Positions 2,798-55,470 of a stretch of DNA of 64,000 bases are shown one piece after another (within the stretch, counting starts at the first letter, position 1; every line of letters starts with the position of its first letter). Made by a program: the position numbers and the translations under genes. A model generated the notes under the pieces. That model was given only the letters and a program-made list of their open reading frames with translations. It made no database searches and was not told the origin of the DNA. The DNA lies in contig CAZJFQ010000001.1 in assembly GCA_964545335.1 (NCBI GenBank), positions 1,766 through 65,765 on the forward strand, read 5' to 3'. The stretch is from an uncultured Gammaproteobacteria bacterium. GTDB lineage: Bacteria; Pseudomonadota; Gammaproteobacteria; Steroidobacterales; CAZJFQ01.

Positions 2798-2864
2798 AAT
2801 GGGATTTCAACCGTTCGCAAGATCGCGAATGATACAAGTATATTGCACAGGCTTCATTTCCAAG

Positions 2865-2885
2865 CCTTAGGCCCCAGGCCCTAGG
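2865..2885 (+). repeat. Degenerate copy (left-type heptamer array only) of the composite element
   Basis: CCTTAGG CCCCAGG CCCTAGG in the rpe-djlA spacer. No convincing hairpin or pyrimidine array follows. Confidence 0.4.
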
Positions 2886-2965
2886 ATGCAGAAAAGCGCA
2901 CAGACTTGGTTGCGTTACTATTTTTTCTTGCGCCTAGCACCTGTTGCCTAGCGTCTTATCCGTCG

Positions 2966-3772
2966 CTAGCGCATCCCCCGCGCCTCTTTGACTGTATCGT
3001 AGGCAGCCCGAATTTCGCGCGTCTTTTCTTTTGCTGCCTGCATCATCGACTCGGGCAAGCCGCGCGATACGAGCTTGTCGGGGTGATGTTGATTCATCAG
3101 GCGGCGGTATGCGGTCTTGACCTCTTTGTCGGTCGCGTCACTGCCGATTCCCAGCACGTCGTAACCCGCTGCGACCGCATCGATCGTCTGACGGGCTGCC
3201 TGACGATCCTGATAGGCGCGCTGTGCCCTTATCAACGCCTCGATTTGTGCCAGCTCAACCCTCGAGATGCCAAGCTGCCGACAAATGTCTATCAGAATGC
3301 GCCGGACGTTCGGATGGACGCTGCCGGTCGCGAGCGCCGCCTGCATCTGCAGCTCCATGAACGCACGATTCAAATCGTGACGGCCACGGCTGGCCAGACG
3401 AAATTTCTCAATCGTATCCCGTAACGGAAAATCAGACCGCTTGCCGTCAGTGAACAACCGTATCGCCTCCTTGACCTGATCGGGAGCAAGGCGCAGTTGC
3501 TGCATGATTGCGCGGGCCATCCGGATTTCGTCTTCGGAAACCCGACCGTCCGCTTTCGCCATATGGCCCATGACGGAGAAAGCACTGGCGAAAAATATGG
3601 CCTGAAGCTCGCGGACACCGTATCGCGGTATCGCCCCCCGGGCCTTTCCAAAGCCGCGGTCGAACTGGTGACCGACAGCCAGTCCGATAATGAAGCCGAG
3701 CGGGCCAAGCCTTACCCCGCTGAACAGAAACCAGCCCAGAATGGCGCCCGCGATCTTTCCCCACCAGGTCAC
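2966..3772 (-). CDS. djlA: Co-chaperone DjlA (membrane-anchored DnaJ-like protein)
   Basis: N-terminal TM helix, TerB-like middle region, and a C-terminal J domain with HPD (YRRLMNQHHPDKL). Confidence 0.9.
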   Translation of the reverse strand: MTWWGKIAGAILGWFLFSGVRLGPLGFIIGLAVGHQFDRGFGKARGAIPRYGVRELQAIFFASAFSVMGHMAKADGRVSEDEIRMARAIMQQLRLAPDQVKEAIRLFTDGKRSDFPLRDTIEKFRLASRGRHDLNRAFMELQMQAALATGSVHPNVRRILIDICRQLGISRVELAQIEALIRAQRAYQDRQAARQTIDAVAAGYDVLGIGSDATDKEVKTAYRRLMNQHHPDKLVSRGLPESMMQAAKEKTREIRAAYDTVKEARGMR

Positions 3773-49194: not shown

Positions 49195-50379
49195 TCAAAC
49201 CGGTCCGCCAAAGGCGGGGTACGTCGGCAGATTACTGTCGGAATCTGACCACCGGGAGCGCAACCGATGCGCCAGATCCGAAAAAAACGCCCCGGTGGCG
49301 GTGAGGTGACAACAGCTCTCGGTCGTTGCTGCGAAGCTCTCGAATCGGGACACGAACCTCTGTCTCTCTGTAGCCGTACCCCAGGTCTGATCCTGATCCG
49401 GCAGTTTACGGCTGGTGATCATATCCAGCACGAGATAAGCACAGGCCTCAGCGATGGACGCCTGGTACAACTCATCATCGCCGGCCTGGGGTATCTTTGT
49501 TACGAGTTCGCTCCGATAGGTGTCCTCCATGCGGTCGAGCAGTTCCAGCGGAATTCCTCGAACACACCAGCATGACGGGAAGTGCATCCGGGCATAGACG
49601 CCGTCTACAAGGAACGGTCCGAAATTGCTGAAGGCAAAGTCCCAGACTTTCATGCCGTCCGTTCCAACAGCAAAATTATCCGGGCAGGCATCGTTGTGGA
49701 CAAAAGCAACATACGGACCTTGATCGGCAAAAAAGCCATCCATCCCCGCAATCTCCGTTGTTACGTCGCGCGGCATGGACAGACTGACAGCCCTGGCGCA
49801 TTCGCCAGCGGCCGCAATCAGCCGGGCGCACTTGTCCGCGGGACTCAATTCCGTTCGCGCTGTGCCGAACTGCATCTGTATCTGGTTGTAGGTTTCGCGT
49901 CGCAGGTAAGTCGATGAATGCAAGCGCCCCAACGTAACCGCGACATCAATCAAAGCACTTTCGGCAGCTTCCTGATTACTACCGAGCAGAATCTGGTCCA
50001 CCAGTGTGACTTCCCCAAGATCTTCGAGGAGAATCATTCCGATCGATGAATCGGCGGCAATCGGGTGCGGCGCCAGTCGGGAGGTGGAAGCGTCTGTTGA
50101 CAGGAATTCGAGTCCGCAGGATTCGTTGCGGAACCGTTGCCTAGTATCAAAAGAATCTTCGGGCTGCTCTCCCATGTCCGACGGTGACAAAACACGTTTG
50201 GCAACGACGGATGCCGGCGCCGCCTGCGGCGCGGCGGCGAAGTCAAGGCGATACACCCGGGTGTACCTTCCGCTCTTCAGGATCTCGCCCTGAGCTACCT
50301 TGACCGGTTCACCCCACACACGTGACAGCAACTCGCCGGCGAGGATGGCGGTCTCATTGTCGAAATCGTCAGAGGGCAT
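49195..50379 (-). CDS. Aminoglycoside/choline-kinase-like phosphotransferase family protein
   Basis: Catalytic loop FVHNDACPDNF and downstream VWDFAFS (the D-x-x pair of APH-type kinases). Confidence 0.75.
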   Translation of the reverse strand: MPSDDFDNETAILAGELLSRVWGEPVKVAQGEILKSGRYTRVYRLDFAAAPQAAPASVVAKRVLSPSDMGEQPEDSFDTRQRFRNESCGLEFLSTDASTSRLAPHPIAADSSIGMILLEDLGEVTLVDQILLGSNQEAAESALIDVAVTLGRLHSSTYLRRETYNQIQMQFGTARTELSPADKCARLIAAAGECARAVSLSMPRDVTTEIAGMDGFFADQGPYVAFVHNDACPDNFAVGTDGMKVWDFAFSNFGPFLVDGVYARMHFPSCWCVRGIPLELLDRMEDTYRSELVTKIPQAGDDELYQASIAEACAYLVLDMITSRKLPDQDQTWGTATERQRFVSRFESFAATTESCCHLTATGAFFSDLAHRLRSRWSDSDSNLPTYPAFGGPV

Positions 50380-50388
50380 ATGACTGTG

Positions 50389-50517
50389 TCTTGAGTCCTG
50401 AGCCAGCGGCGCAACTGCGCCGGATATTTTTCCATTTTTTTGATGTTCTTCGTGGTCAATTACGCGTCAGCGTTACTTCCCGCTTCCCGCTTCCCGCTTC
50501 CCGCTTCCCGCTTCCCG
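50389..50517 (+). repeat. Composite heptamer/hairpin/heptamer element, long variant with 6 perfect CTTCCCG units (copy 5)
   Basis: TCTTGAG TCCTGAG (50389-50402). Hairpin CGGCGC-AACT-GCGCCG (50407-50422). Spacer with ACGC-GTCA-GCGT (50462-50473). (CTTCCCG)x6 at 50476-50517, 5 nt from the ggt stop codon. The unit count was checked against ORF 50322..50555. Confidence 0.85.
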
Positions 50518-50522
50518 CTTTT

Positions 50523-52220
50523 TCAGTATCCCGCCGCCTGTCCATCCTTACGTGATTCCGATGCACCCAGATAGATACCGCGATCATGATCGCGCAGGAT
50601 CGCCTGATAGCCCCCAAAACCGCTGTTTGCACGCGCGACCGAATGCCCCTTTGCTTCCAGATCCGTCACCGTAGTATCGCTGAAGGCGCTTTCGATCAGC
50701 ACACGTCCACCGTCTGACATGCTCTCGCCGGTGGGCTGACTTGAACCCTCGTGGCGGATTCGCGGTGCATCGCCCGCTTCCTGCAGGTTCATGCCGAAAT
50801 CGATCATATTGACCAGGATCTGCGCGTGCGCCTGCGGTTGCATGCCGCCGCCCATTACTCCGAAGCTCATTACCGGCATGCCGTCTCTTGTTACAAACGC
50901 CGGGATGATCGTATGAAACGGACGCTTGCCGGGCGCGTAGACGTTGTTATGCCCGGCTTCGAGGCTGAACAGTTCACCGCGATCCTGAAGACTGAAACCC
51001 AGATCCACCGGTGTCATGCCGGAACCCATGCCGCGATAGTTGCTCTGGATCAGCGAAATCATGTTGCCCTCAGAATCCGCGACGGTGAGGTATATCGTAT
51101 CGCCTGCGTCGGGCAGGCCGGGCGGATAACTTCCTGCCGCGTTCGTACCGATAAGGTCCCGACGTTGATCCGCATAGCTTTTCGAAATCAACTGCTGTAC
51201 CGGCATCTCGACGAAAGCGGGGTCTGCGTAGTACTTCGCCCGATCCTCGAAGGCCAGCTTCTTTGCCTCGACGAAGGTATGAACGTAGTCAGCACTGTCG
51301 AAACCCATCGCGGAAAGGTCAAAACCCTCAAGGATGTTCAGGATCTGCAAGGCAGCAATTCCCTGACCGTTGGGCGGCAGTTCCCAGACGTCGAACCCTC
51401 GGTAGTTCGTTGACAGCGGCTCCACCCATAGCGATTCATGACTGGCCAGATCGTCGTAACTCAAAAAGCCGCCGTTTTCCCGCATAAAGACGTCGATCGT
51501 TCGGGCTATATCCCCCTTGTAAAACGCGTTCCGCCCTTCATCGGCCAGTTTCTGGTAAGTATCAGCCAGTGCGGGATTCCGGAAGATATCTCCCTTGTCA
51601 GGTGGCTGACCGTCTGGCAGAAACACCTCGGCAAAGCCCGGCCACGGTTTTCGAGCGGGGGTGTTGAGTTTCCAGTAGAACGATATGACTTCCGAGACTG
51701 GAAATCCTGCGCGTGCATAGCGAATCGCCGGCGCCAGCACGTCGCTCATCGGAAGACGTCCAAAGCGGTCGTGCAATTCGAACCAGCCATCTACAGCGCC
51801 AGGTACACTGACCGGCACTGGCCCGAAAGACGGAATTTTCTCCAGACCTCTTTCCAGAAAATAGTCGAGAGTGAGCGATCGGGGTGATCGGCCACTCGCA
51901 TTAAGACCGTGGAGTTTCCGCTTATCGGCATCCCAGACAATTGCAAAAAGATCGCCGCCAATACCGCAACCTGTTGGCTCCATCACCCCTAAGGCCGCGT
52001 TAGCTGCTATCGCTGCGTCTACAGCCGATCCGCCCTGTTTGAGGATGTCGAGAGCTATCTGGGTGGCGAGTGGCTGACTTGTCGCTGCCATGCCGTGCTT
52101 CGCAATTACCTCAGAGCGGGAGGCAAAAGTGTCTCCCTCGACACGATCAAAACCATGAGCCATAGGCATAACCAGTGAAAGCAGCAAACCCGGTGATATA
52201 AGCCGCGCTCGCGAAAACAT
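50523..52220 (-). CDS. ggt: Gamma-glutamyltransferase
   Basis: Signal-like N-terminus and Ntn-hydrolase family. Processing-site context GDTIYLTVAD. C-terminal GGYQAI. Confidence 0.9.
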   Translation of the reverse strand: MFSRARLISPGLLLSLVMPMAHGFDRVEGDTFASRSEVIAKHGMAATSQPLATQIALDILKQGGSAVDAAIAANAALGVMEPTGCGIGGDLFAIVWDADKRKLHGLNASGRSPRSLTLDYFLERGLEKIPSFGPVPVSVPGAVDGWFELHDRFGRLPMSDVLAPAIRYARAGFPVSEVISFYWKLNTPARKPWPGFAEVFLPDGQPPDKGDIFRNPALADTYQKLADEGRNAFYKGDIARTIDVFMRENGGFLSYDDLASHESLWVEPLSTNYRGFDVWELPPNGQGIAALQILNILEGFDLSAMGFDSADYVHTFVEAKKLAFEDRAKYYADPAFVEMPVQQLISKSYADQRRDLIGTNAAGSYPPGLPDAGDTIYLTVADSEGNMISLIQSNYRGMGSGMTPVDLGFSLQDRGELFSLEAGHNNVYAPGKRPFHTIIPAFVTRDGMPVMSFGVMGGGMQPQAHAQILVNMIDFGMNLQEAGDAPRIRHEGSSQPTGESMSDGGRVLIESAFSDTTVTDLEAKGHSVARANSGFGGYQAILRDHDRGIYLGASESRKDGQAAGY

Positions 52221-55353: not shown

Positions 55354-55463
55354 CTGTTAGTCCTGAGTCCTGAATCCTGAGCTGCCGACGCATCCGCATC
55401 GGTTCACTTTCCGCTTGCCGCTGTCCGCTTTCCACTTTTCACCTTTCACTTCCCGGTTCCCGC
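55354..55463 (+). repeat. Composite heptamer/hairpin/heptamer element inside the alpha operon (copy 6)
   Basis: CTGTTAG TCCTGAG TCCTGAA TCCTGAG (55354-55381). Imperfect hairpin CCGACGC-ATCC-GCATCGG (55385-55402). Eight units TTCACTT TCCGCTT GCCGCTG TCCGCTT TCCACTT TTCACCT TTCACTT CCCGGTT (55403-55458). The parts sum to the 117-nt rpsM-rpsK spacer. Confidence 0.85.
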
Positions 55464-55470
55464 AAAGTGC

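What the first reader, a model, noticed from the sequence alone, without database searches (positions are those of the whole stretch)
50476..50517. Six perfect CTTCCCG repeats abutting the ggt stop codon: G-quadruplex motif and possible slippage tract
(CTTCCCG)x6 ends 5 nt from the ggt stop codon (50523-50525). I verified the count through the translation of the overlapping track ORF 50322..50555 (TSRFPLPASRFPLPA). On the minus strand, which is the sense strand for ggt and the downstream kinase-like gene, this reads (CGGGAAG)x6. That is six GGG runs separated by 4-nt AAGC loops, which satisfies the canonical G3-N1-7 x4 quadruplex rule in both DNA and the intercistronic RNA. It is the only copy of the element with at least four GGG runs and the only perfectly homogeneous array. 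That homogeneity suggests recent expansion by slipped-strand mispairing. The unit length is not a multiple of 3, but the tract lies just outside the ORF.
Basis: seen in the sequence. Interest (0 to 1): 0.6.

Follow-up and report, generated by a model that had tools for sequence, protein, structure and literature searches.

The report
Hypervariable 7-base repeat behind ggt
The six CTTCCCG repeats just after the ggt gene are a real, fast-changing microsatellite (2, 5, 6 or 8 units in near-identical strains) of a repeat class already described in other bacteria, and its G-quadruplex motif is an allele-specific by-product, not the conserved feature.

Summary
A perfect (CTTCCCG)x6.4 tract lies at 50476-50520, 2-5 nt after the ggt stop codon, with the G-rich strand on the sense strand.

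It is not a one-off. It is the longest of 52 GGGAAGC arrays in this 2.5-Mb uncultured gammaproteobacterial genome. It forms the first module of a mosaic intergenic cassette.

The slippage idea is now shown directly:
- Four independent assemblies of the same species carry CGGNAAG-type units in this gap: 2 units, 5 units (4 perfect) and 8 units (7 perfect), against 6 in the window. One contig breaks inside the array.
- The flanks differ by only 0.3-2%.

The G-quadruplex (G4) motif is formally met and predicted to fold, but it is not conserved:
- One strain has no GGG run at this site.
- A sister genus has (CGTGAAC)x3-4 at the same position.
- 37 of the 52 arrays have fewer than four G-tracts.
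- There is no preference for four units.

This fits the published class of G-rich heptamer repeats placed after stop codons on the sense strand (Rehm 2015). It is a new member of a known kind whose function is still unknown.

Side result: the same unit forms inverted arms around the genome's only PF05635 (IVS/Avd-like) gene.

The parts
50476..50520 (-). (CGGGAAG)x6.4 perfect heptamer microsatellite. The G-rich strand is the sense strand of ggt and of the kinase-like gene. It is the longest of 52 GGGAAGC arrays in the genome.
   Evidence: allelic series of 2, 5, 6 and 8 units
50523..52220 (-). ggt (gamma-glutamyltransferase, 565 aa). The TGA stop is at 50523-50525 and the C-terminus ...DGQAAGY is the native one, so the array has not replaced the gene end.
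50424..50475 (-). Second dispersed module. Sense strand reads TAACGCTGACGCG-TAATTG-ACCACGAAG-AACATCAAAAAAATGG.... The combination CGCTGACGCG + N5-9 + ACCACGAAG recurs about 30 times in the genome, often right after a GGGAAGC array.
50407..50422 (-). Small GC hairpin CGGCGC-AGTT-GCGCCG (cassette module 2). It is not followed by a U-run on the sense strand, so it is not a terminator for ggt. On the + (antisense) strand it is followed by a T-rich run.
   Evidence: copies on C19, C51, C2, C10, C54, C6, C5
50383..50406 (-). Degenerate second-class heptamers (sense GCTCAGGACTCAAGACACAGT) running up to the kinase start codon. CTCAGGACTCAAGAC recurs on several contigs.
49195..50379 (-). APH-fold kinase-like gene (394 aa) downstream of the gap. 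It is followed by a class I methyltransferase. The same order ggt - gap - kinase is found in close strains and in a sister genus.

Best explanation
**What it is.** The tract is a hypermutable heptanucleotide microsatellite. It is the currently longest copy of a lineage-specific GGGAAGC repeat family. It sits as the first module of a mosaic intergenic cassette between ggt and the kinase-like gene: purine-rich heptamers after the stop codon, then a CGCTGACGCG...ACCACGAAG module, then a GC hairpin, then a second heptamer class up to the next start codon.

**Shown.**
- It gains and loses whole 7-nt units between strains of one species, far faster than the flanks accumulate substitutions.
- Its G-rich, C-poor strand is the mRNA-sense strand, as for the family as a whole.
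- The same gap position holds a heptamer array in a sister genus, but with a different unit that has no G-tract.

**Inferred.**
- The length changes arise by strand slippage at replication or repair.
- The tract is transcribed as the untranslated start of the ggt-kinase spacer. No sense-strand terminator lies in the gap, and the tract begins 2 nt after the stop.
- Alleles with at least 4 units can fold into a moderately stable three-tetrad G4 with 4-nt loops. This is an allele-specific by-product. It may modulate ggt termination, 3' stability or kinase translation, but it is not the conserved or selected property.
- What is conserved is a stop-proximal array of purine-rich, C-poor 7-nt units (core G-N-R-A-A). 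The strand rule is best explained by selection at the transcript level, for example against C-rich Rho-loading RNA in an untranslated spacer. That last step is untested.
For: **Allelic series at this site.**
- Units after the ggt TGA: window 6x CGGGAAG; L132 4x CGGGAAG + CGGAAAG; L135 7x + CGGAAAG; L134 CGGTAAG + CGGAAAG only.
- The gaps are 142, 135, 156 and 113 nt's count, taken from after the stop to the base before the ATG. The first three differ by exact multiples of 7. L134 differs from the window by 28 nt of array plus one extra 1-nt indel in the spacer.

**Flank identity.**
- The last 1510 nt of ggt show 4 mismatches against L134, 4 against L135 and 27 against L132. Overall identity is 97.3-99.6%.

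**Controls in the same strains.**
- The rpmJ-rpsM cassette is identical in 4 strains.
- The rpsM-rpsK cassette differs by a 14-nt (2-unit) indel plus a few substitutions. The indel and most of the substitutions lie in the purine array, and two lie in the hairpin module.

**Family in this genome.**
- TRF finds 268 period-7 arrays, against about 60 each for periods 6 and 8. Fifty-six have the GGGAAGC consensus.
- There are 52 perfect GGGAAGC arrays.

**Strand polarity.**
- In 28 arrays an ORF of at least 100 codons ends at the array on the G-rich strand, against 3 on the C-rich strand.

**Lineage specificity.**
- 0 of 150 genomes from 24 families of the same order carry (CGGGAAG)3.

**Sister genus (ggt 78% aa identity, kinase 50%).**
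- It has (CGTGAAC/GGTGAAC)x4, and x3 in one sample, 6 nt after the ggt stop. A hairpin and GCCTAGR heptamers follow, up to the kinase ATG.

**Other.**
- There is no terminator on the sense strand in the gap.
- G4 prediction.
- Published precedent for placement, length variation and G4 folding of GGGAATC arrays: PMC4692102.
Against: - The alleles therefore come from assemblies. Assemblers can miscount tandem repeats, and one k=31 contig (L133) breaks inside the array.
- Against miscounting as the explanation: the arrays (at most about 60 nt) are shorter than normal reads. The alleles also differ by unit substitutions and by linked flank SNPs.
- No transcript data exist, so transcription of the tract and any effect on expression are inferred.
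- Positional conservation across genera and the strong strand rule hint at some function, which a purely neutral-slippage reading leaves unexplained.
- G4 motifs are otherwise depleted in the genome: 49 observed against about 130 in shuffles, and 15 of the 49 are these arrays. This could mean the arrays are tolerated for a reason.
Confidence: 0.78

Rival explanations
1. Dedicated G-quadruplex element. The tract is kept because its RNA, or the non-template DNA strand, folds into a G4. The G4 would regulate ggt termination or mRNA 3' stability, or act as a bulky barrier that raises translation of the downstream kinase.
For: - Six G3 tracts with 4-nt loops are present, and the G4 is in the predicted minimum-energy fold.
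- (GGGAATC)3GGG, which has the same loop length, folds into a K+-dependent G4 with T1/2 50.4 C (PMC4692102).
- RNA G4s in bacterial 5'UTRs can raise translation (PMC11087576).
- The genome is otherwise depleted of G4 motifs, yet 15 of its 49 are these arrays.
- The G-rich strand is on the sense strand.
Against: - Strain L134 has no G3 tract at this site, with ggt 99.6% identical.
- The sister genus has CGTGAAC units there.
- 37 of the 52 arrays have fewer than 4 tracts. Copy numbers decline 25, 15, 9, 2, 1 with no peak at four, unlike Xanthomonas.
- The same monotonic decline is seen in 136 arrays from other phyla.
Confidence: 0.12
2. Protein- or ribosome-binding platform. The 7-nt periodic purine units (core G-N-R-A-A, whatever the exact unit) are binding sites for an RNA-binding factor such as S1, a Csp or CsrA-like protein, or the terminating or scanning ribosome. 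Alternatively they form a C-poor anti-Rho insulator for the untranslated spacer. Copy number would tune the strength.
For: - An array is kept at the same position across genera although the unit differs.
- The strand rule is strong, 28 against 3.
- The array's sense strand is 86% purine and 12% C.
- Rho is encoded in the genome.
- A similar proposal was made for TAACTGA heptamers in Beggiatoaceae (PMC4679880).
Against: - No binding factor has been identified.
- The unit sequence is not conserved.
- The array ranges from 2 to 8 units among near-identical strains, which argues against tight constraint.
- Nothing could be tested with the tools at hand.
Confidence: 0.2
3. Phase-variation (contingency) switch. 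Unit gain or loss would switch ggt or the kinase on and off.
For: - The site is hypervariable in whole-unit steps.
- The unit length is not a multiple of 3.
Against: - The tract lies outside both ORFs.
- No promoter hexamers flank it.
- It lies 96 nt from the kinase start.
- The family follows genes of all kinds, including ribosomal-protein genes.
- Rehm 2015 reached the same negative conclusion for the Xanthomonas repeats.
Confidence: 0.04
4. Remnant arm or seed of a mobile fold-back cassette. GGGAAGC arrays would be arms of IVS-type cassettes (such as the one holding the PF05635 gene), and the ggt array would be a solo arm left by an insertion or excision.
For: - The genome's only PF05635 gene (C79:6648-6959) is bracketed by inverted GGGAAGC arrays of 5.3 and 4 units.
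- Three more inverted pairs enclose 190-230 nt.
- The other modules of the gap are also dispersed repeats.
Against: - The ggt array has no inverted partner anywhere in the window.
- A cassette with the same layout occupies this gap in the sister genus, which points to long residence rather than recent insertion.
- No reverse transcriptase was found.
- The single Y1 transposase is not flanked by these repeats.
Confidence: 0.08
5. Assembly artefact. The unit number is mis-assembled and the apparent polymorphism is not real.
For: - One k=31 Logan contig breaks inside the array.
- Period-7 arrays are about 3-fold enriched within 60 nt of contig ends: 6 of 268, against 0.7% expected.
Against: - Four independent assemblies give complete arrays of at most about 60 nt, shorter than normal reads.
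- The alleles also differ in unit sequence (CGGAAAG, CGGTAAG) and in linked SNPs.
- The sister genus shows its own x3/x4 polymorphism.
Confidence: 0.03

Closest known systems
G-rich heptameric SSRs of Xanthomonas (GGGAATC) and Nostoc PCC 7120 (GGGGA(C/T)T), Rehm et al. 2015, PMC4692102
   Same: - 7-nt unit with a G3 tract and a 4-nt loop.
- Dispersed through the genome and mostly non-coding.
[quoted passage not shown]
- Extensive length and sequence variation between close relatives.
- Associated with genes of all functions.
- Function unknown.
   Different: - The unit is GGGAAGC. No bacterial paper in the searched library contains this tandem repeat.
- There is no preference for four units here.
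- The arrays are embedded in a multi-module cassette with a hairpin and a second heptamer class.
- The family is absent from 150 other genomes of the same order.
TAACTGA intergenic direct repeats of marine Beggiatoaceae, cyanobacteria and Bacteroidetes (MacGregor 2015, PMC4679880)
   Same: - Heptamer direct repeats of 2-6 copies.
- Hundreds of intergenic sets in a gammaproteobacterium, including ribosomal-protein operons.
- Patchy cross-phylum distribution.
- Suspected post-transcriptional role.
   Different: - Those repeats sit a few nt upstream of start codons and are not G-rich.
- This tract sits after a stop codon.
- The second-class heptamers of this cassette (CAGGACT type) are the closer analogue of TAACTGA.
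Cyanobacterial STRR heptamer repeats, and long heptanucleotide SSRs noted in surveys of prokaryotic genomes (own knowledge: Mazel et al. 1990; Mrazek et al. 2007, which I take to be the survey cited in PMC4692102 for the heptamer excess, not checked against its reference list)
   Same: - Tandem 7-nt units, intergenic, dispersed and variable in length.
- The heptamer excess is attributed to polymerase slippage.
   Different: - Different units and different lineages.
- No stop-codon anchoring rule was described originally.
Phase-variable SSR contingency loci (e.g. Haemophilus influenzae, PMC2651432)
   Same: - Slippage-driven gain and loss of whole units.
- High mutation rate relative to the flanks.
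   Different: - Contingency SSRs lie inside ORFs or between promoter elements and switch surface genes.
- This tract lies outside ORFs and promoters, next to housekeeping-type genes.
REP/BIME elements of enterobacteria (own knowledge, including Liang, Rudd and Deutscher 2015 on REPs within 15 nt of stop codons)
   Same: - Dispersed, transcribed, intergenic elements placed after stop codons in operons and at convergent gene ends.
- Potential to impede the terminating ribosome or 3' exonucleases.
   Different: - REPs are imperfect palindromes mobilised by RAYT.
- This tract is a direct tandem repeat with no palindrome.
- The only Y1 transposase in the genome is unrelated to it.

Membership tests
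G-rich heptameric SSR class (Rehm et al. 2015) | Tandem 7-nt unit containing a G3+ tract | tested here: met
   CGGGAAG x6.4, 100% matches
G-rich heptameric SSR class (Rehm et al. 2015) | Many dispersed copies in the genome, over-represented relative to other periods | tested here: met
   52 perfect arrays; 51 perfect period-7 arrays of at least 3 units against 0-3 for periods 5, 6, 8-12; 268 TRF period-7 arrays
G-rich heptameric SSR class (Rehm et al. 2015) | G-rich strand on the sense strand within 50 bp downstream of a stop codon (or overlapping the ORF end) | tested here: met
   This tract starts 2 nt after the ggt TGA. Genome-wide the split is 28 G-sense against 3 C-sense gene ends, and 7 arrays are read into by the ORF.
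G-rich heptameric SSR class (Rehm et al. 2015) | Length and sequence variation between closely related genomes | tested here: met
   2, 5, 6 and 8 units at the orthologous site; flanks 97.3-99.6% identical
G-rich heptameric SSR class (Rehm et al. 2015) | Preference for four units (the G4 minimum) | tested here: not met
   Copy numbers 2:25, 3:15, 4:9, 5:2, 6:1. In other phyla 3:60, 4:38, 5:17 and so on.
G-rich heptameric SSR class (Rehm et al. 2015) | K+-dependent G4 folding of the oligonucleotide in vitro | not testable with these tools
   Prediction only: ViennaRNA gquad places a G4 in the minimum-energy fold, and G4Hunter gives 1.17 over the array and 1.44 for the best 25-nt window.
Conserved functional G-quadruplex element | At least four G-tracts retained at the orthologous site in relatives | tested here: not met
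   L134 has 0 G3 tracts. The sister genus has CGTGAAC units.
Phase-variable contingency locus | SSR inside an ORF, or between the -35 and -10 or other control elements, so that unit number switches expression | tested here: not met
   The tract lies between the stop codon and a spacer. The scan found no promoter-like site in the gap. It is 96 nt from the kinase ATG.
Intrinsic terminator | GC hairpin followed by a U-run on the sense strand | tested here: not met
   No minus-strand terminator-like site lies in the gap. The only hit is on the + strand. The Watson-Crick fold of the gap is no better than shuffles (z = -0.78).
REP/BIME or MITE-type mobile element | Palindromic unit or terminal inverted repeats, with a cognate transposase flanked by the repeats | tested here: not met
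   The tract is a direct repeat. The one Y1 transposase (C78) is flanked by unrelated sequence.
Arm of an IVS-type fold-back cassette (inverted heptamer arrays around a PF05635 gene) | Inverted partner array within about 1 kb | tested here: not met
   No CGGGAAG array lies on the + strand of the window. Such pairs do exist elsewhere in the genome on C79, C18, C23 and C71.

The most novel reading that the evidence does not exclude
Stop-codon-anchored heptamer arrays may be a conserved device that does not depend on the unit sequence.
- The ggt-kinase gap keeps an array at the same position across genera while the unit turns over (CGTGAAC against CGGGAAG).
- The array always presents a purine-rich, C-poor strand to the mRNA.
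- It could serve as an anti-Rho insulator or as a platform for an RNA-binding factor.
- Slippage would make its strength, and in GGGAAGC alleles a G4 barrier 2 nt behind the stop codon, heritably tunable between strains.
- The same unit forms the stems around the genome's single PF05635 (IVS/Avd-like) gene, so solo arrays and fold-back cassettes may share one generating process.
Probability: 0.12. Interest if true: 0.7.

Novelty: new member of a known kind. Interest (0 to 1): 0.35.

Why it matters
This is a clean natural experiment on whether bacterial G-rich heptamer repeats are kept for G-quadruplex folding.
- At one orthologous site, strains that differ by about 0.3% in the adjacent gene carry 0, 4, 6 or 7 G-tracts.
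- A sister genus carries a unit with no G-tract at the same site.
- G4 folding is therefore dispensable at this site, while the stop-proximal, strand-polar heptamer array persists.

That sharpens the open question left by Rehm et al. 2015: what are these repeats for? It also gives a ready-made allelic series for reporter and biophysical tests.

In practice the tract is a good strain-typing marker for this uncultured lineage. It is also a warning for MAG assembly, since contigs break at such arrays.

Tried and rejected
- **Exact look-ups.** Look-ups of the window's own kinase and ggt found nothing. The same held for the PF05635 protein.
- **Metagenome scan.** The metagenome-contig scan with the kinase found no relative.
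- **Same-order genomes.** Forty same-order genomes have no kinase homologue. None of 150 has the repeat. Orthologous comparison therefore had to come from the search for homologous proteins followed by the look-up of encoding contigs.
- **Extra alleles.** A look-up of the methyltransferase gave no new alleles.
- **Rfam.** There is no family hit in the window.
- **Literature.** String searches for the tandem repeat found only unrelated eukaryotic papers.
- **Writing mechanism.** An RT-based writing mechanism is not supported, because there is no PF00078 hit.
- **Mobilisation.** RAYT/REP-type mobilisation is rejected.
- **Gene calls.** My first crude greedy ORF calls put 19 arrays 'inside ORFs'. 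That was an artefact of longest-ORF calling, and I replaced it with the stop-codon-anchored test.
- **Promoter in the gap.** A promoter formed by the TTGACC in the spacer is not supported by the scan.

Full report
**1. The observation**

The + strand reads CTTCCCG x6.4 without a mismatch at 50476-50520.

ggt (50523-52220, minus strand; PF01019 E 1.5e-160; TIGR00066) ends ...DGQAAGY-TGA. That is the normal end of the family and is identical in position to the sister-genus protein. The array therefore lies just outside an intact gene, 2-5 nt after the stop.

The next gene on the same strand is a 394-aa APH-fold kinase-like ORF (49195-50379). The gap is 143 nt.

On the sense strand the tract is (CGGGAAG)6. 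It is the only canonical G4 motif in the 64-kb window.

**2. It is one member of a genome-wide family**

The window belongs to a 2.475-Mb, 147-contig, 56% GC genome. It is 87.6% complete and is the only member of its family among the genomes held.

- Perfect tandem arrays of at least 3 units number 51 for period 7, against 0-3 for periods 5, 6 and 8-12. Twenty-seven of the 51 are GGGAAGC.
- TRF finds 268 period-7 arrays, 56 with this consensus.
- There are 52 perfect GGGAAGC arrays of at least 2 units, with copy numbers 2:25, 3:15, 4:9, 5:2, 6:1. The ggt tract is the longest.
- Fifteen arrays meet the G4 rule. They make up 15 of only 49 such motifs in the genome, against about 130 in composition-matched shuffles.

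*Polarity.* In 28 arrays an ORF of at least 100 codons ends at the array on the G-rich strand. In 21 of these the stop lies 1-27 nt upstream, and in 7 the ORF reads into the array. Only 3 arrays show this on the C-rich strand.

*Distribution.*
- The unit is lineage-specific within the order: 0 of 150 genomes from 24 families carry (CGGGAAG)3.
- The same 21-mer recurs in more than 118 loci of unrelated phyla, among them Gemmatimonadaceae, Acidobacteriota, Thiohalobacter, Xanthomonas floridensis and Zobellella. Arrays there reach 12 units.
- In those loci the polarity is weaker but goes the same way, 41 against 12.

**3. Anatomy of the gap**

The sense strand reads, in order:
- TGA-AA;
- (AAGCGGG)6.4;
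- TAACGCTGACGCG-TAATTG-ACCACGAAG-AACATCAAAAAAATGGAAAAATAT;
- the hairpin CGGCGC-AGTT-GCGCCG;
- CTGGCTCAGGACTCAAGACACAGTCAT-ATG.

Each part is itself a dispersed repeat:
- The hairpin plus CTCAGGACTCAAGAC module recurs on at least 10 contigs.
- The CGCTGACGCG...ACCACGAAG module recurs about 30 times, often directly behind a GGGAAGC array.

Earlier agents described this as a three-part cassette. The ggt copy is a long variant.

No terminator-like site lies on the sense strand in the gap, and the scan finds no promoter-like site there. The Watson-Crick fold of the gap is no better than shuffles (z = -0.78).

**4. The slippage test**

A homology search with the kinase found a 97%-identical cluster. 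Its encoding contigs come from independent assemblies of related samples. After the ggt TGA they read as follows:

| Source | Units after TGA | Gap (one search's count) |
|---|---|---|
| window | 6x CGGGAAG | 142 nt |
| L132 | 4x CGGGAAG + CGGAAAG | 135 nt |
| L135 | 7x CGGGAAG + CGGAAAG | 156 nt |
| L134 | CGGTAAG + CGGAAAG | 113 nt |
| L133 | contig starts inside the array | not available |

(One search counted from after the stop to the base before the ATG, which gives 142 nt for the 143-nt window gap.)

The rest of the gap is nearly identical in all of them.

*Flanks.* Overall identity is 97.3-99.6%. The last 1510 nt of ggt differ from the window by 4 mismatches in L134, 4 in L135 and 27 in L132. 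At about 0.3% flank divergence the array therefore differs by 2-4 whole units.

*Controls in the same strains.*
- The rpmJ-rpsM cassette, which holds 2.4 GGGAAGC units and 4 CTACAGA units, is identical in four strains.
- The rpsM-rpsK cassette differs by a 14-nt, two-unit indel plus a few substitutions. The indel and most of the substitutions lie in its purine array, and two lie in the hairpin module.

Variation thus comes in 7-nt steps, is concentrated in the purine arrays, and is greatest in the longest, most perfect array. That is the signature of strand slippage.

*Caveat.* These are assemblies, not reads.

**5. The G-quadruplex reading**

*In favour of capacity.*
- ViennaRNA with its G4 model places a three-layer G4 in the minimum-energy fold of the spacer RNA. 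The gain is about 5-6 kcal/mol in the window allele, 1.7 in the 4-tract allele, 6.4 in the 7-tract allele and none in L134.
- G4Hunter gives 1.17 over the array and 1.44 in the best 25-nt window.
- (GGGAATC)3GGG from Xanthomonas has the same loop length and differs by one loop base. It forms a K+-dependent G4 with T1/2 50.4 C (PMC4692102).
- In vitro G4 capacity of the window allele is therefore likely.

*Against the G4 being the conserved property.*
- L134 has no G3 tract at this site.
- A sister genus (ggt 78% aa identity, kinase 50%, same synteny rplQ-orf-ggt-kinase) has (CGTGAAC/GGTGAAC)x4, and x3 in one sample, 6 nt after its ggt stop. A hairpin and GCCTAGR heptamers follow, up to the kinase ATG.
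- 37 of the 52 family members have fewer than 4 tracts.
- Copy numbers show no peak at four, unlike Xanthomonas.

*What persists.* A stop-proximal array of purine-rich, C-poor heptamers persists. The units in this genome align to G-[G/T]-[G/A]-A-A-N-N.

**6. Mechanism**

*Shown:* whole-unit length change between strains; sense-strand polarity; positional persistence with unit turnover.

*Inferred:*
- Slippage at replication or repair causes the length changes.
- The tract is transcribed with ggt, because it begins 2 nt after the stop and no terminator intervenes.
- G4 folding occurs only in alleles with at least 4 units.

*Possible consequence (own knowledge of REP elements near stop codons, Liang et al. 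2015; and PMC11087576):* a structure this close to the stop lies partly within the terminating ribosome's footprint and upstream of the next cistron. Unit number could therefore modulate ggt termination, 3' stability or kinase translation.

*Strand rule.* I favour selection at the RNA level.
- The array's sense strand is 86% purine and 12% C. Its complement would be a C-rich, G-poor, Rho-loading sequence.
- Rho is encoded in the genome.
- This idea is untested, and I give it about 0.2 (it is part of the protein-binding / anti-Rho rival explanation).

**7. Comparison with what is known**

The tract meets the defining features of the G-rich heptamer SSR class of Rehm et al. [quoted passage not shown] The exception is the preference for four units.

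It also resembles the TAACTGA heptamers of Beggiatoaceae in being a gammaproteobacterial intergenic heptamer system of unknown post-transcriptional role.

It is not any of the following:
- a contingency locus (wrong position);
- an intrinsic terminator;
- a REP/RAYT element.

The unit GGGAAGC is not discussed in any bacterial paper in the searched library.

Earlier agents of this scan reached similar conclusions for other units in other phyla. Those notes are leads, not evidence. Two of them I tested here and found to hold: 'relatives have another unit at the same site', and 'PF05635 genes sit between inverted arrays'.

**8. Side result**

The genome's single PF05635 (23S rRNA IVS / Avd-like) gene is at C79:6648-6959.
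- It is enclosed by inverted GGGAAGC arrays of 5.3 and 4 units, inserted between two co-directional genes.
- Three further inverted pairs enclose 190-230 nt of non-coding sequence.
- No reverse transcriptase is present.
- The ggt array has no inverted partner, so it is a solo array.

**9. Verdict**

This is a real and statistically unambiguous feature. The slippage hypothesis is confirmed as far as assemblies allow. The G4 motif is genuine as a motif but is not conserved. The tract belongs to a published, still unexplained class, so it is a new member of a known kind and of moderate interest.

Noticed in passing
own genome C79:6560-7113 (outside the window): The only PF05635 (23S rRNA IVS / Avd-like four-helix-bundle) gene of the genome is bracketed by inverted GGGAAGC arrays. 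On the sense strand, 5.3 units lie upstream and 4 units downstream as TCCCGCT. The whole unit sits between two co-directional genes, like an IVS-type fold-back cassette. No reverse transcriptase was found in the genome.
   Followed up: partly
own genome C18:11162-11404, C23:8863-9114, C71:6395-6666: Three more inverted pairs of GGGAAGC arrays enclose 190-230 nt with no convincing ORF. Each folds as one long stem (-120 to -132 kcal/mol). They may be decayed cassettes or structured RNAs.
   Followed up: partly
window 50424-50475 and about 30 other sites in the genome (e.g. C46, C28, C36, C50, C63, C13): A second dispersed module, CGCTGACGCG-N5-9-ACCACGAAG, comes in two versions. One continues into a conserved element of about 60 nt (GCGCCCTNCGGGCAC...CTTCACTCGGGGCGCAC). 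The other continues into 9-nt repeats (AACACGAAG / AACACCAAG) and an A-rich run. It has no Rfam match in the window.
   Followed up: partly
L140-L145 (sister genus), about 2834-3000: The ggt-kinase gap of a sister genus holds the same cassette layout with other units. (CGTGAAC)x4 follows the stop, and x3 in the JGI sample L143. Then come a TTTCGGGCAACCCGAA hairpin and (GCCTAGR)n before the ATG. This array shows its own one-unit polymorphism.
   Followed up: yes
window 55354-55470 vs L138:1858-1960: The rpsM-rpsK cassette shows a 14-nt (two-unit) indel between strains, located in the purine heptamer array. The CAGGAYT units next to the rpsK start are invariant. The hairpin module carries two substitutions in L138. 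The rpmJ-rpsM cassette is identical in four strains.
   Followed up: yes
window 50407-50432 (+ strand): On the antisense (+) strand the cassette hairpin CGGCGCAACTGCGCCG is followed by GATATTTTTCC. This is a terminator-like site for transcription running against ggt and the kinase. Other cassette copies likewise have T-rich heptamers after the hairpin on that strand.
   Followed up: no
own genome, 7 arrays (e.g. C21:2204-2232, C6:44238-44261, C2:14244-14267, C43:15718-15743): In seven cases the upstream ORF reads into the GGGAAGC array and stops at a TAA or TAG just after it. There, gain or loss of a unit would change the frame and length of the protein's C-terminal tail.
   Followed up: no
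L134 / L135 vs window, ggt against kinase: ggt is 99.6% (L134) and 98.9% (L135) identical to the window, but the adjacent kinase is only 97.3-97.6% identical. Identity therefore drops across the repeat-bearing gap, which may be a recombination boundary.
   Followed up: no
genome-wide: Canonical G4 motifs are about 2.7-fold rarer than in composition-matched shuffles (49 against about 130). Nearly a third of those present are GGGAAGC arrays. Period-7 arrays are about 3-fold enriched within 60 nt of contig ends.
   Followed up: partly
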